Assembly (NCBI RefSeq): GCF_009914755.1
Contig: NC_060927.1
Length of the DNA stretch: 64,000 nt
Source of the DNA: the human T2T-CHM13v2.0 reference genome, Homo sapiens
Direction: 5' to 3' (one strand)
The notes under the pieces: model-generated
Seen by the model: the letters and a program-made list of their open reading frames with translations, nothing else
Databases searched by the model: none
Told to the model about the DNA's origin: nothing
Shown here: positions 9,740-20,800 of the stretch, one piece after another
Layout of the letters: each line of letters opens with the position of its first letter
How positions within the stretch are numbered: position 1 is the stretch's first letter
Position numbers and translations under genes: made by a program

Positions 9740-12700
9740 TTTTTTTTTTTAATTATACTTTATGTTCTAGGGTACATATGCACAACGTGCAGGTTTGTTA
9801 CATATGTATACATGTGCCGTGTTGGTTTGCTGCACCCATTAACTCGTCATTTACATTAGGTATTTCTCCTAATGCTATCCCTCCCCAATTTCCCCACTCC
9901 ACGACCGGCCCCAGTGTGTGATGTTCCCTGCCCTGTGTCCAAGTGTTCTCATTGTTGAATTCCCATCTATGAGTGAGAACATGCGGTGTTTGGTTTTCTG
10001 TCCTTGTGATAGTTTGCTGAGAATGATGGTTTCCAGCTTCATCCATGTCCCTACAAAGGACATGAACTCATCTTTTTATGGCTGCAAAGTATTCCATGGT
10101 GTATATGTGCCACATTTTCTTAATCCAGTCTATCATTGTTGGACATTTGGGTTGGTTCCAAGTCTTTGCTATTGTGAATAGTGCCACAATAAACATATGT
10201 GTGCATGTGTCTTTACAGTAACATGATTTATAATCCTTTGGGTATATACCTAGTAATGGGATGGCTGGGTCAAATGGTATTTCTAGTTCTAGATCCTTGA
10301 GGAATCACCACACTGTCTTCCAAAATAGTTGAACTAGTTTACACTCCCATCAACAGTGTAAAAGCTTTCCTATTTCTCCACATCCTCTCCAGCACCTGTT
10401 GTTTCCTGACTTTTTAATGATTGCCATTGTAACTGGTGTGAGATGGTATCTCACTGTGGTTTTGATTAGCATTTCTCTGATGACCAGTGATGATGAGCAT
10501 TTTTTCATGTGTCTGTTGGCTGCATAAATGTCTTTTTTTGAAAAGTGTTCACGTCCTTTGCCTACTTTTTCATGAGGTTGATTTTTTCTTGTAAATTTGT
10601 TTAAGTTCTTTGTAGATTCCAGATATTACCCTTTGTCAGATGGGCAGATTGCAAAAATTTTCTCCCATTCTGTAGGTCACCTGTTCACTCTGATGGTAGT
10701 TTCTTTTGCTGTGCAGAAGCTCTTTAGTTTAATTAGATCCCATTTGTCAATTTTGGTTTTTGTTACCATTGCTTTTGGTGTTTTAGTCATGAAGGCCTTG
10801 CCCATGCCTATATCCTGAATGATATTGCCTATGTTTTCTTCTAGGGTTTTTATGGTTTTATGTCTAAAACTTAAGTCTTTAATCCATATTGAATTAATTT
10901 TGTATAAGGTATAAAGAAGGGATCCAGTTTCAGCTTTCTATGTATTGCTAGCCAGTTTTCCAAGCACCATTTATTAAATAGGGAATCCTTTCCCCATTGC
11001 TTGTTTTTGTCAGGTTTGTCAAACACCAGATGGTTGTAGATGTGTGCTGTTATTTCTGAGGCCTCTGTTCTGTTCCATTGGTCTATATCTCTGTTTTGGT
11101 ACTAGTACCATGCTGTTTTGGCTACTGTAGCCTTGTAGTACAGTAGTACAGCCTGTAGTACGTCAGGTAGCATGATGCCTCCAGCTTTGTTCTTTTTGCT
11201 TAGTATTGTCTTGGCAATGTGGGCTCTTTTCAGTTCCATATGAACTTTAAAGTAGTTTTTCCCAAGAAAGTCACTGGTAGCTTGATGGGGATGGCATTGA
11301 ATCTATCAATTACTTTGGGCAGTATGGCCACTTTCATGATATTGATTCTTCCTATCCATGAGCATGGAATGTTCTTTCATTTGTTTCTGTCCTCTTTTAT
11401 TTTGTTGAGCAGTGGTTTGTAGTTCTCCTTGAAGAAGTCCTTCACATCCCCTGTAAGTTGTATTCCTAGGTATTTCATTCTTTTTGAAGCAATTGTGAAT
11501 GGGGTTTCACTCATGATTTGGGTCTCTGTCTATTATTGGTGTATAGGAATGCTTGTAATTTTTTCACATTGATTTTTGTACCCTGAGACTTTGCTGAAGT
11601 TGCTTTCAGCTTAAGGAGATCTTGGGCTGAGTTGATGGAGTTTTCTAAATATACCATCATGCCATCTGTAAACAGGGACAATTTGATTTCCTCTTTTCCT
11701 AATTGAATACCCTTTATTTCTTTCTCTTGCCTGATTGCACTTGCCAGAACTTCTAACACTATGTTGAACAGGAGTGGTGAGAGAGGGCATCCCTATCTTG
11801 TGCCAGTTTTCAAAGGGAATGCTTCCAGTTTTTGCCCATTCAGTATGATATTGGCTGTGGGTCTGTCATAAATGGCTCTTATTATTTTGAGATACATTCC
11901 ATCAATACCTAGTTTATTGAGAGTTTTTAGCATGAAGATTGTTGAATTTTGTCAAAGGCCTTTTCTGCATCTATTGAAATAATCACATTATTTTTGTCAT
12001 TGGGTCTGTTTATGTGATGCATTACATTTATTGATTTATGCATGTTGAACCAGCCTTGTATTCCAGGGATGAAGCTGACTTGATTGTGGTGGATAAGCTT
12101 TTTGATGTGCTGCTGCATTTGGTTTGCCAGTATTTTATTGAGGATTTTTGCATTGATGTTCATCAGGGATATTGGTCTGAAATTCTCTTTTTTGTTGTTG
12201 TGTCTCTGCCAGGCTTTGGTGTCAGGATGATGCTGGCCTCATAAAATGAGTTAGGGAGGATTCCCTCTTTTTCTATTGATTGCAATAGTTTCAGAAGGAA
12301 TGGTACCAGCTCCTCTTTATACCTCTGGTAGAATTCGGCTGTGAATCCATCTGGTCCTGGACTTTTTTTGGTTGGTAGGATATTAATTATTGCTTCAATT
12401 TCAGAGCCTGTTATTGGTCTATTTAGTGATTCAACTTCTTCCTGGTTTAGTCTTGGGTGGGTGTATGTGTCCAGGAATTTATCCATTTCTTCTAGGTTTT
12501 CTAGTTTATTTATGTACAGGTGTTTATAGTATTCTCTGATGGTAGTTTGTATTTCTCTGGGATCAGTGGTGATATCCCCTTTATCATTTTTTATTGCATC
12601 TATTTGATTCTTCTCTCTTTTCTTCTTTATTAATCTTGCTAGCAGTCTATCAATTTTGTTGATCTTTTCAAAAACCAGTTCCTGGATTCATTGATTTTTT

Positions 12701-17825: not shown

Positions 17826-20800
17826 TAGTGCCACAATAAACATAAGTGTGCATGTGTCTTTACAGTAGAATGATTTATAATCCTTTGGTTATACCCTGTA
17901 ATGGAATTGCTGGGTCAAATGGTATTTCTGGCTCTAGATCCTTGAGGAATCACCACACTGTCTTCCACAATGGTTGAACTAATTTGTCAATTTGGCTTTT
18001 GTTACCATTGCTTTTGGTGTTTTGGACATGAAGTCTTTGCCCATGCCTATATCCTGAATGGTATTGCCTAGGTTTTCTTCTAGGGTTTTTATGGTTTTAG
18101 GTCTTATGTTTAAGTCTTTAATCCGTTTTGAGTTAATTTTTGTATAAGGTAAAGGAAGGGATCCAGTTTCAGTTTTCTGCCTATGGCTAGCCAGTTTTAC
18201 CAACACCATTTATTAAATAGGGTATCCTTTCCCCATTTGCTTTTGTCAGGTTTGTCAAAGATCAGATGGTTGTAGATGTGTAGTGTTATTTCTGAGGCCT
18301 CTGTTCTGTTCCATTGGTCTCTACCTCTGTTTTGATACCAGTATCATGCTGTTTTGGTTACTGTAGCCTTGTGGTATAGTTTGAAGACAGGTAGCGTGAT
18401 GCCTCAAGCTTTGTTCTTTTTGCTTAGGATTGTCATGTCTATACGGGCTCGTTTTTGGTTCCAGATGAAATTTAAAGCAGTTTTTTCCAATTCTGTGAAG
18501 GAAGTCAATGGTAGCTTGATGGGGATAGCATTGAATCTATCAATTACTTTAGGCAGTATGGCCATTTTCATGATATTGATTCTTCCTATCCATGAGTATG
18601 GAATGTTTTTCCATTTGTTTGTGTCCTTTCTTATTTCCTTGAGAAGTGGTTTGTAGTTCTCCTTGAAGAGGTCCTTCACATCCCTTGTAAGTTGGATTCC
18701 TAGGTATTTTATTCTCTTTGTAGCAATTGTGAATGGGAGTCCACTCATAATTTGGCTCTCCATTTGTCTACTATTGGTGTATAGGAATGCTTGTGATTTT
18801 TGCACATTGATTTTGCATCCTGAGACTTTGCTGAAGTTGCTTATCAGCTTAAGCATATTTTGGGCTGAGATGATGGAGTTTTCTAAATATACAGTCATGT
18901 CATCTGCAAACAGAGACAATTTGACTTCCTCTCTTCCATTTGAATACCCTTTATTTCTTTCTCTTGCCTGATTGCCCTGGCCAGAACTTCCAACACTATG
19001 TTGAGTAGGAGTGGGGAGAGAGGGCATCCTTGTCTTGTGCCAGTTTTCAAAGGGAATGCTTCCAGCTTTTGTCCATTCAGTATATTGGCTGTGGGTCTGT
19101 CATAAATAGCTATTATTTTGAGATACATTCCATCAATACCTAGTTTATTGAGAGTTTTTAGCATGAAGGGGTGAATTTTATCAAAGGCCTATTCTGCATC
19201 TATTGAGATATTCATGTGGTTTTAGTTGTTGGTCCTGTTTATGTGATGGATTACGTTTATTGATTTGCATATGTTAAACCAGCCTTGCATCCCAGGGATG
19301 AAGCCGACTTAATTGTGGTGAATAAGCTTTTTGATGTGCTGCTGCATTTGGTTTGCCAGTATTTTATTGAGGATTTTCGCATTGATATTCCTCAGGGATA
19401 TTGGCCTGAAATTTTCTGTTTTGGTTGTATCTCTGCCAGGTTTTGGTATCAGGATGATGCTGGCCTCATAAAATGAGTTAAGGAGGAATACCTTTTTTTC
19501 TATTGTTTGGAATAGTTTCAGAAGGAATGTTACAAGCTCTTCTTTGTACCTTTCATACAATTCAGCTGTGAATCCGTCCGGTCCTGGGCTTTTTTTGGCT
19601 GGTAGGCCAACCAAAAAATTACTGCCTCAATTTCAGAACTTATTATTGGTCTATTCAGGTATTCAACTTCTTCCTGGTTTAGTCTTGGGAGGGTGTATGT
19701 GTCCAGGAATTTATCCATTTCTTCTAGATTTTCTAGCTTATTTGTGTAGAGATGTTTATAGTATTCTCTGATGGCAGTTTGTATTTCTGGGGGATCAGTG
19801 GCGATATCCCCTTCATCATTTTTTATTGTGTCTATTTGATTCTTCTCTCTTTTCTTCTTTGTTTTTCTGGCTGGCAGTCTATTTTGTTGATCTTTTAAAA
19901 AAAAAACCAGCTCCTGGATTCATTGATTTTTTTTAAGGGCTTTTCGTGTCTCTATCTCCTTCAGTTCTGCTCTTAGTTATTTCTTGTCTTCTGCTAGCTT
20001 CTGAATTTGTTTGCTCTTACTTCTCTAGTTCTTTTAATTTTGATGTTAGGGTGTCGATTCTAGATCTTTCCCGCTTTCTCCTGTGGGCATTTAGTGCTGT
20101 AAATTTTCCTCTAGGACGGGCACGGTGGCTCACGCCTGTAATCCCAGCACTTTGGGAGGCCTAAGCAGGCGGATAACGAGGTCAGGAGATCGAGACCATT
20201 CTGGCTAACACTGTGAAACCCCGTCTCTACTAAAAATACAAAACATTAGCCGGGTGTGTTGGTGGGTGCCTATTAGTCCCAGCTACTTAGGAGGCTGAGG
20301 CAGGAGAATCACTTGAATCTGGGAGGCAGAGGTTGCAGTGAGCTGCGATTGCACAACTGCACTCCAGTCTGGATGACAGAGTGAGGCTCTGCCTCAAAAA
20401 AAAAAAAATTCCCTCTGAACACTACTTTAGCTGTGTCTCAGAGATTCTGCTACATTGTGTCTTCATTCTCATTGTTTCAAAGGACCTATTTATTCCTGCC
20501 TTAATTTTGTTATTTACCCAGTAGTCACTGAGGAGCCGGTTGTTCAGTTTCCATGTAGTTGTGCAGTTTTGAGTGAGTTTCTTAATCCTGAGTTCTAATT
20601 TGATTGCACTGTGGTCTGAGAAACTGTTATGATTTCCGTTCTTTTGCATTTTCTGAGGAGTGTTTTACTTCCAATTATGTGGTCAATTTTAGAATAAGTG
20701 TGATGTGGTGCTGAGAAGAATGTATATTCTGTTGATTTGGGGTGGAGAGTTTTGTAGATGTCTGCTTGGTCCAGAGCTGAATTCAAGTCCTGAATATCCT

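What the first reader, a model, noticed from the sequence alone, without database searches (positions are those of the whole stretch)
10200..19360. A and B also share private variants, making A a mosaic in a three-way conversion network
Seen in sequence: A and B (direct orientation, ~7.2 kb offset) share five variants that C lacks: ctttaCag (A ~10216, B ~17863), gttAcc (10762-10767 / 18001-18006), cctatAtcc (10807-10815 / 18047-18055), atctatCaatt (A ~11307, B ~18541; KVIDRF instead of KVIYRF) and gtCtgtcat (A ~11863, B ~19097). All three share aaatGcagcagcac, giving MQQHIKK instead of IQQHIKK (A ~12116, B ~19346, C ~54948), and aactccatc. None of these is a CpG transition. Inference: A has B-like and C-like patches, so the local L1s exchanged sequence repeatedly. 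Consensus states are recalled, so some variants could be sublineage markers.
Basis: partly seen in the sequence, partly recalled or inferred. Interest (0 to 1): 0.72.

Follow-up and report, generated by a model that had tools for sequence, protein, structure and literature searches.

The report
Neighbouring L1 fossils share chance variants
Two old LINE-1 fossils 7 kb apart do share a handful of uncommon base changes, but an unrelated copy on another chromosome shares just as many with one of them, so there is no good sign that these two swapped sequence, although a third copy nearby did swap one short stretch.

Summary
The sequence facts are right. A (9741-13649, minus) and B (17825-23705, minus) carry all five named variants at the stated places, and none is a CpG transition. 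The variants are uncommon across the genome (1.3-7.0% of copies with the same flanking word), each is carried by different unlinked copies, and they do not co-segregate. So they are not sublineage markers, and they are not private either.

The gene-conversion reading for A-B does not hold. A and B belong to different L1 subfamily groups. A carries B-type states at only 2 subfamily-diagnostic sites against 67 of its own type. Every shared variant lies 6-60 bp from a site where A and B keep different subfamily states. A-B identity and identical-run lengths are ordinary. A-B share 5 rare states against 1.9 expected, and 19 of 335 divergence-matched unlinked pairs reach that. A shares 5-7 rare states with a chr11 copy, the same as with B. 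None of the 8 shared states is unique to the pair.

By contrast, A and C share a 159-bp cluster of five variants. A 23-mer from it occurs only twice in the genome, so the A-C exchange is real.

Verdict: A-B sharing is most likely recurrent mutation, and the "three-way network" reduces to one A-C link.

The parts
9741..13649 (-). L1 copy A. It holds the 3' part of the element (ORF2 region to the poly-A tail, seen as a T run at 9741-9751 on the + strand) and is 5'-truncated at 13649. It belongs to my subfamily group G2.
   Evidence: blastn against C, sequence, diagnostic sites and tree
17825..23705 (-). L1 copy B. It reaches the 5' UTR region and has lost its 3' end at 17825. An internal deletion is joined near 17982-17985. 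It belongs to my subfamily group G1/G1b.
20114..20404 (+). Insertion inside B that interrupts the match to C. It looks like an Alu to me from recall; no tool was run on it.
   Evidence: gap in the B-C match between 20113 and 20405; sequence
51107..57290 (+). L1 copy C, of an intermediate subfamily type. Its ORF fragments match L1 ORF2p. The 5' limit given is only where the match to B begins.
10216..10216 (-). v1 in A (B 17863). Sense A>G, 7.0% of copies genome-wide. It lies 6 bp from a subfamily difference at 10222.
10765..10812 (-). v2 (10765, B 18004; C>T, 1.3%) and v3 (10812, B 18051; C>T, 1.8%). A and B differ at 4 sites between them. The interval is bounded by a subfamily difference at 10866 and by B's deletion junction.
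11307..11307 (-). v4 in A (B 18541). T>G (Y to D), 1.6%. It lies 14 bp from a subfamily difference at 11293.
11863..11863 (-). v5 in A (B 19097). A>G, 3.7%. It lies 34 bp from a subfamily difference at 11829.
12116..12116 (-). v6 in A (B 19345, C 54948). C>G (I to M), shared by all three copies. 21 of 2137 copies with the same 24-nt context carry it, and 64 more carry it with the neighbouring CpG-side G.
11504..11662 (-). A side of the A-C shared tract. Variants at 11662, 11632, 11621, 11522 and 11504, with the triple-shared T at 11639 inside it. This is the likely ectopic gene-conversion tract.
55402..55560 (+). C side of the same A-C tract.

Best explanation
A, B and C are three separate insertions of a primate LINE-1, laid down by successive subfamilies: B from the older-looking group, C from an intermediate one, and A from the next. 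Since then each copy has decayed on its own.

The variants that A and B share are independent hits of the same substitution at sites that are also hit sporadically in other copies across the genome. Each copy carries about 100 rare changes over the 2.8 kb they have in common. With that load, two to three coincidences are expected, and five to eight is within what unlinked pairs show.

The two 'all three share' items have a simpler reading. A and C share them through their own link: the T at 11639 lies inside the A-C tract, and v6 lies in a second, looser A-C cluster. B carries them by coincidence at states that are not rare for its type. v6-G is in 2 of 11 G1 panel copies, and the T at 11639 is in 7 of 57 panel copies.

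Shown here: the subfamily placement, the variant frequencies, and the matched controls. Inferred: that the coincidences are parallel mutations.
For: 1. Different subfamilies and no mosaic. Among 82 diagnostic columns, B has the G1 state at 44 and the G2/3 state at 6. A has the G2/3 state at 67 and the G1 state at 2, both shared with C. In the tree, B sits in the G1 clade and A in the G2 clade, and each is 58th of 59 in the other's neighbour list.

2. Each shared site is flanked by a site where A and B keep different subfamily states: v1 at 6 bp, v4 at 14 bp, v5 at 34 bp, v3 at 54 bp, and A 10911 at 23 and 45 bp. Conversion would therefore need at least six separate tracts of at most about 43-224 bp, none of which touched a diagnostic site.

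3. No local homogenisation. A-B identity is 89.5%, against a mean of 89.8% (range 87.4-91.2) for the 156 cross-group pairs, which include 143 unlinked pairs. The longest identical runs are 58, 56 and 51, against medians of 61, 52.5 and 46.

4. Matched controls. A with the unlinked chr11 copy L042 shares 5/6/7 rare states at the three thresholds, against 5/5/7 for A with B. Divergence-matched unlinked pairs reach the A-B count in 19 of 335, 33 of 351 and 9 of 346 cases.

5. The shared sites look like recurrent-hit sites. 0 of 8 A=B rare states lack another carrier in the panel, whereas 48.5% of A's (50 of 103) and 48.6% of B's (54 of 111) own rare states have none. Each variant is carried by different unlinked copies and occurs 21-240 times genome-wide.

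6. A real exchange looks different at this same locus. A-C has four pair-unique variants in 159 bp and a 23-mer found only twice in the genome.
Against: - The A-B count is nominally high: 5 against 1.9 expected (Poisson P 0.04) and 7 against 3.1 (P 0.04).
- Among cross-subfamily unlinked pairs that do not involve A or B, 0 of 121, 2 of 121 and 0 of 121 reach the A-B count, although those pairs carry fewer private changes.
- 0 of 11 pairings of B with unlinked G2 copies reach it.
- v6 is at 1.0% in its word context, yet 3 of the 21 genomic carriers of that word lie in this window. Only 4.7% of random panel triples share any state that rare.
- v2, v3 and A 10911 lie within 147 bp of each other.
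- Even under chance, 0 of 8 pair-unique states is somewhat low, since unlinked pairs show 32.5% pair-unique.
- The A-C tract shows that exchange did happen at this locus.
- Neighbouring Alus within about 10 kb are reported to share non-diagnostic mutations (passages in PMC8230782 and PMC6598467).
- Non-crossover tracts shorter than about 100 bp would fit between the diagnostic sites.
- The panel has only 57 copies, and they were picked by similarity to a 701-nt core of A or B.
Confidence: 0.68

Rival explanations
1. Several short-tract ectopic (non-allelic) gene conversions between A and B, which lie 7.2 kb apart in direct orientation, copied single private mutations from one copy to the other. 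On this reading some of the 5-8 shared variants are converted, and the rest are chance.
For: - There is a nominal 2-2.5-fold excess over expectation.
- The A-C tract proves exchange at this locus.
- The distance is within the roughly 10-kb range reported for Alu neighbours (passages only).
- The permitted tract lengths of 43-224 bp are not absurd for non-crossover events (my own knowledge, not tested here).
- v2 and v3 lie 47 bp apart and could be one tract.
Against: - It needs at least six separate tracts, none of which converted any of about 50 diagnostic differences.
- There is no reduced divergence and there are no long identical runs.
- 0 of 8 shared states is pair-unique, where about half would be expected for copied private mutations. 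By my arithmetic, 0.515^8 is about 0.005 if all eight were converted, and about 0.07 if four were.
- A with the unlinked copy L042 shares the same number.
- There is no shared rare indel. The only columns flagged lie in B's deletion or beyond the panel's reach.
Confidence: 0.2
2. The shared variants are markers of a minor source lineage. A and B, and C for v6, were copied from related master elements that already carried them.
For: v6-G is found in 2 of 11 G1-type panel copies (L043, L060) plus B, so it may be a polymorphism of that lineage. A and C sit next to each other in the subfamily succession.
Against: - v1-v5 are at 1.3-7.0% genome-wide.
- In the panel each is carried by a different copy (L044, L034, L042, L054, and L011/L016/L020), so there is no co-segregation.
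- In the listed places, the only other copies with two of the variants are one with v2+v3 and three with v1+v3. None was seen with three (only the first 100 places are listed per word).
- A and B belong to different subfamily groups.
Confidence: 0.05
3. A regional or context-specific mutation bias raised the rate of the same substitutions in both copies. They lie in the same orientation, so the same strand is transcribed or replicated.
For: There is a mild excess for A-B (direct orientation, 7 kb apart) and none for B-C, which share 1-2 against 1.9-3.1 expected.
Against: The shared changes are of mixed type: A>G twice, C>T four times, T>G and C>G. A-C, in inverted orientation, also shows an excess outside its tract.
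Confidence: 0.07

Closest known systems
Recurrent (homoplastic) substitution among decaying copies of one retrotransposon family
   Same: The same rare state turns up independently in unlinked copies. Each of v1-v5 is seen in other scattered copies, 39-240 exact-word matches genome-wide. Unlinked pairs share 1-7 such states.
   Different: Nothing differs in kind. The A-B count sits in the upper 3-9% of divergence-matched unlinked pairs.
Sequence homogenisation of neighbouring Alu elements by non-allelic gene conversion (Aleshin and Zhi 2010). I saw this only as cited in passages of PMC8230782 and PMC6598467; the paper itself is not held.
   Same: The A-C tract here is an L1 example of such an exchange.
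   Different: A-B shows none of the tract signatures. The real link, A-C, spans 43.9 kb in inverted orientation, which is beyond the range quoted for Alus. The elements are L1 ORF2 sequence, not Alu.
Succession of L1PA subfamilies in primates, a single lineage of master elements. This is recalled general knowledge (Khan, Smit and Boissinot 2006), not read here.
   Same: The panel falls on one gradient, from G1 through intermediates to G2 and G3, with B, C and A at successive points. This explains most sites where all three differ from the panel majority.
   Different: I could not attach L1PA numbers, because no RepeatMasker or Dfam library was on hand. G1, G2 and G3 are my own labels.

Membership tests
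LINE-1 (L1) retrotransposon copy | ORF2 protein homology (reverse transcriptase) | tested here: met
   ORF fragments of C match Pfam RVT_1 (E 2e-8) and solved LINE-1 ORF2 protein chains (E about 1e-61, 1e-33 and 1e-37). A and B align to C over 3.9 and 5.9 kb.
LINE-1 (L1) retrotransposon copy | 3' poly-A tail and many dispersed genomic copies | tested here: met
   A ends in a T run at 9741-9751 on the + strand. C ends in an A-rich tail near 57270-57300. B has lost its 3' end. 701-nt pieces of A, B and C gave 11615, 8809 and 9070 first-look candidates in the genome.
LINE-1 (L1) retrotransposon copy | Assignment to a named L1PA subfamily | not testable with these tools
   No repeat library was available. 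Only relative grouping against 57 genomic copies was possible.
Ectopic gene-conversion tract between A and B | A cluster of variants private to the pair | tested here: not met
   0 of 8 shared rare states is unique to the pair among 60 sequences. The variant words occur 21-240 times genome-wide.
Ectopic gene-conversion tract between A and B | Co-conversion of neighbouring subfamily-diagnostic sites (mosaic structure) | tested here: not met
   A has the G1 state at 2 diagnostic sites against 67 G2/3 states, both exceptions shared with C. Each shared variant lies 6-60 bp from an A-versus-B subfamily difference.
Ectopic gene-conversion tract between A and B | Locally reduced divergence or unusually long identical runs | tested here: not met
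   Identity is 89.5% against a mean of 89.8% for cross-group pairs. Runs are 58/56/51 against medians of 61/52.5/46.
Ectopic gene-conversion tract between A and B | More shared rare variants than unlinked pairs of equal divergence | tested here: inconclusive
   5 against 1.9 expected (P 0.04), with 19 of 335 matched unlinked pairs reaching it. A with the unlinked copy L042 shares the same number.
Sublineage (source-gene) markers | Alleles common in a set of copies and co-segregating | tested here: not met
   Frequencies are 1.0-7.0%. The carriers differ for each variant. Only four other copies with two of the variants were seen in the listed places.
Ectopic gene-conversion tract between A and C (contrast case) | A cluster of variants private to the pair | tested here: met
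   There are five variants in 159 bp, and four are unique among 60 sequences. The 23-mer occurs only in A and C, and a 22-mer occurs 7 times including A and C.

The most novel reading that the evidence does not exclude
The three L1 fossils form a small exchange network. Besides the clear A-C tract, very short conversion tracts (under about 120 bp) passed single mutations between A and B. If so, the neighbour effect described for Alus would also act on old L1 copies and would leave only single-site footprints.
Probability: 0.2. Interest if true: 0.4.

Novelty: not a real feature. Interest (0 to 1): 0.2.

Why it matters
If old L1 copies that lie near each other traded sequence often, ages read from their divergence and subfamily calls would be biased. 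Clusters of L1 would also mark sites of past ectopic repair.

Here the A-B signal does not rise above what unlinked copies show, so it gives no reason to think so. The useful result is methodological. Two tests separate a real exchange (A-C) from coincidence (A-B) within the same window: whole-genome word counts, and a check of the neighbouring subfamily-diagnostic sites.

Tried and rejected
- **Sublineage markers:** rejected. The variants are uncommon and sit on different copies.
- **Tandem duplication of one insertion giving A and B:** rejected. They belong to different subfamily groups, A is 5'-truncated at 13649 where B continues, and only 8 of about 110 rare states are shared. The chr4 pair in L061, which may be a true duplicate (or a subfamily the panel does not sample), shares 42 of 104-124.
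- **Large conversion tracts and a mosaic A:** rejected.
- **Shared rare indels between A and B:** none found outside B's deletion and the unsampled 5' columns.
- **Close pairs of carriers as a genome-wide test.** Besides A/B, the listed places hold pairs 3.4-25 kb apart, which by my rough estimate is more than chance. The one pair I fetched is either a duplicate or belongs to an unsampled subfamily, so this cannot be read as conversion.
- **A panel centred on C:** could not be fetched.
- **Earlier findings of this scan:** not open.
- **Aleshin and Zhi 2010:** not held.
- **Paper search for L1-specific gene conversion reports:** gave nothing usable. I therefore claim nothing about what is or is not in print for L1.
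Full report
**What is there.** The window holds three long copies of one repeat.
- A (9741-13649, minus strand) ends in a T run that is its poly-A tail.
- B (17825-23705, minus) carries an inserted element at 20114-20404 and an internal deletion, and it has lost its 3' end.
- C (about 51107-57290, plus) is the longest in the compared region.

ORF fragments of C match Pfam RVT_1 and solved LINE-1 ORF2 protein chains at E about 1e-61, so these are L1 copies. 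By blastn, A-C is 86.6% identical over 3992 columns, and the B-C pieces are 81.6-87.6% identical.

**Checking the observation.** A three-way alignment gave 2928 ungapped columns: 2442 identical, 228 where B differs, 123 where C differs (A=B), 119 where A differs, and 16 where all three differ. A=B against C is therefore the ordinary result of C's own mutations. It is only interesting where the shared state is unusual for the family.

All five named variants, and the two states shared by all three copies, are at the stated places. None lies in a majority CpG.

**How common the variants are.** The human genome could be searched. I fetched the 29 best-scoring unlinked copies for a 701-nt core of A and the 29 best-scoring for the matching core of B, each with 1500-nt flanks. 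L001 and L031 are A and B themselves and were left out. L056 duplicates L021 and was dropped, which leaves 57 copies.

In this panel the variant states are carried as follows:

| Variant | A-centred panel | B-centred panel |
|---|---|---|
| v1 | 0 of 28 | 1 of 25 |
| v2 | 0 of 29 | 1 of 26 |
| v3 | 0 of 29 | 1 of 25 |
| v4 | 0 of 29 | 1 of 28 |
| v5 | 3 of 29 | 0 of 28 |
| v6 | 1 of 28 | 2 of 28 |

The carriers are different copies for each variant.

Exact 22-24-nt words give whole-genome counts:

| Variant | Variant word | Majority word | Frequency |
|---|---|---|---|
| v1 | 229 | 3053 | 7.0% |
| v2 | 189 | 14280 | 1.3% |
| v3 | 240 | 12870 | 1.8% |
| v4 | 39 | 2338 | 1.6% |
| v5 | 132 | 3413 | 3.7% |
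| v6 | 21 | 2116 | 1.0% |

In the listed places (only the first 100 per word are shown), one other copy carries v2+v3 and three carry v1+v3. I saw none with three of the variants. Equally, the variants are not private.

**Is the sharing more than chance?** I counted, for every pair of the 60 aligned sequences with at least 1500 common columns (1697 of 1770 pairs), the states shared by the pair and carried by at most 3, 4 or 5 sequences in all.
- A-B share 5, 5 and 7. The expectation from the pair's private loads is 1.9, 2.5 and 3.1, giving Poisson P of 0.04, 0.11 and 0.04.
- Among unlinked pairs with a similar product of private loads, 19 of 335, 33 of 351 and 9 of 346 reach the A-B count.

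Restricting the null to cross-subfamily pairs gives the same expectation:
- A with the unlinked chr11 copy L042 shares 5, 6 and 7, the same as A with B.
- 1 of 11 pairings of A with unlinked G1 copies reaches the A-B count, and 0 of 11 pairings of B with unlinked G2 copies do.
- Of the other G1-by-G2 pairs, 0, 2 and 0 of 121 reach it. Those pairs carry fewer private changes.

The excess is therefore nominal and is matched by an unlinked copy.

**Is A a mosaic?** Principal components and 82 diagnostic columns put the panel on one gradient, which I label G1, intermediates, G2 and G3.
- B has the G1 state at 44 diagnostic sites and the G2/3 state at 6. Five of those six are seen in at least one of the three closest G1 relatives, and the sixth lies at B's deletion junction.
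- A has the G2/3 state at 67 sites and the G1 state at 2 (12179 and 11532), both shared with C.
- C is intermediate, with 13 G1 states and 55 G2/3 states. Seven of the 13 are shared with the intermediates L028 and L057.

In a maximum-likelihood tree, B is sister to L059 inside G1, A sits inside G2, and C branches at the base of G2. A and B are each other's 58th neighbour of 59.

Every A=B rare site lies close to a site where A and B keep different subfamily states: v1 at 6 bp, v4 at 14 bp, v5 at 34 bp, v3 at 54 bp, A 10911 at 23 and 45 bp, and v6 at 60 bp. Conversion would therefore need at least six separate tracts of at most about 43-224 bp that missed all of the roughly 50 diagnostic differences.

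A-B identity is 89.5%, ordinary for cross-group pairs (mean 89.8%, n=156). The longest identical runs are 58, 56 and 51, against medians of 61, 52.5 and 46.

About half of A's and B's own rare states have no other carrier in the panel (50 of 103 and 54 of 111), but 0 of the 8 A=B states do. That is what recurrent hits at mutable sites look like, not copied private mutations. Unlinked pairs show 32.5% pair-unique (811 of 2495), so 0 of 8 is also a little low under chance. This argument is supportive, not decisive.

**A real exchange in the same window.** A and C share variants at A 11662, 11632, 11621, 11522 and 11504, a span of 159 bp. Four of them are unique among the 60 sequences, and two are transversions. 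The 23-mer spanning two of them occurs exactly twice in the 3.1-Gb genome, in A and in C. A 22-mer with a third variant occurs 7 times, including A and C. This is the signature of ectopic gene conversion between inverted copies 43.9 kb apart.

One of A's two G1-like states (11532) lies inside the tract and matches C. This hints weakly at C as the donor, but the same state is in 2 of 11 G2 copies, so the direction is open. The triple-shared T at 11639 also lies inside the tract, and 7 of 57 panel copies have it, so B's T is an easy coincidence.

v6 is less tidy. Three of the 21 genomic carriers of its word lie in this window, 64 more copies carry G with the other CpG-side base, and 4.7% of random panel triples share any state that rare. 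In the panel, G is in 2 of 11 G1 copies (L043 and L060), so B may have it by descent. A and C share it together with 12179 and 12062 within 118 bp, which may be a second A-C patch, although divergence there is not reduced.

**The genome-wide hint.** Among the listed carriers of the rare words there are other close pairs:
- chr4, 4.2 kb apart (v4)
- chr6, 3.4 kb, and chr5, 12 kb (v3)
- chr1, 17 kb, and chr2, 20 kb (v2)
- chr10, 6.6 kb, chrX, 6.2 kb, and chr4, 25 kb (v6 with G)

My rough expectation for the v2, v3 and v4 pairs, from neighbour densities in the majority lists, is about one in total, and for the v6-with-G word I made no estimate; none of this is a proper test. The one pair I fetched (chr4) shares 42 rare states, 29 of them pair-unique, over 1756 columns. 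It is therefore a duplicate or belongs to a subfamily my panel does not sample. Close pairs cannot be read as conversion without removing such cases.

**Comparison with what is known.** Passages in two reviews report that neighbouring Alus within about 10 kb share non-diagnostic mutations and attribute this to non-allelic gene conversion (PMC8230782 and PMC6598467). The primary paper was not held. My searches for L1-specific reports returned nothing usable, so I make no claim about print. The A-C tract is an ordinary member of that kind of event. The A-B sharing is best read as coincidence.

**Limits.**
- The panel has 57 copies. The tool chose them as the best-scoring 40 of 8809-11615 first-look candidates for a core that contains v4 and v5, so it leans towards well-preserved copies and towards copies like A or B in that core.
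- A C-centred panel could not be fetched.
- Subfamily names could not be assigned.
- Word counts need exact flanks and mix subfamilies.

**Verdict.** Of the interpretation, the C-like patch is supported and the B-like patches are not. My odds are 0.68 for parallel mutation, 0.20 for some short-tract A-B conversion, 0.07 for a regional mutation bias and 0.05 for sublineage markers.

Noticed in passing
window 11504-11662 (A) and 55402-55560 (C): A and C share five variants within 159 bp, four of them unique among 60 sequences. A 23-mer spanning two of them occurs only in these two places in the whole genome. This is a likely ectopic gene-conversion tract between inverted L1 copies 43.9 kb apart.
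   Followed up: yes
window 12062-12179 (A) and 54888-55002 (C): A and C also share three states that are unusual for their subfamily group (12179, v6 at 12116, and 12062) within 118 bp. This may be a second A-C patch, but A-C divergence there is not reduced.
   Followed up: partly
G000 chr4:120482677/120486878 (L061); also chr6:29060900/29064323, chr10:99103685/99110329 and chrX:55726905/55733088: Carriers of the rare words occur as close pairs elsewhere in the genome. The chr4 pair is two head-to-head L1 pieces that share 42 rare states, so it is a duplicate or an unsampled subfamily. The other pairs were not fetched.
   Followed up: partly
window 17825-17985 and 16190-17797: B lacks its last 400 or so bases and poly-A tail, and it has an internal deletion that joins C-equivalents 56298 and 56708. 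Its broken 3' end abuts a much older L1 fragment (67% identical to C) on the other strand.
   Followed up: no
window 54809-54875 and 58155-58209: C carries a long (CA)n plus (A)n run inside ORF2 where A and B have a short A-rich stretch. A separate (GT)n run lies 3.3 kb downstream.
   Followed up: no
window 58368-58594 and 59617-60015, with 58595-59616 between them: An older L1 3' fragment (78-82% identical to C) is split by about 1 kb of inserted sequence. From recall it looks like a solo LTR of an endogenous retrovirus. No tool was run on it.
   Followed up: no
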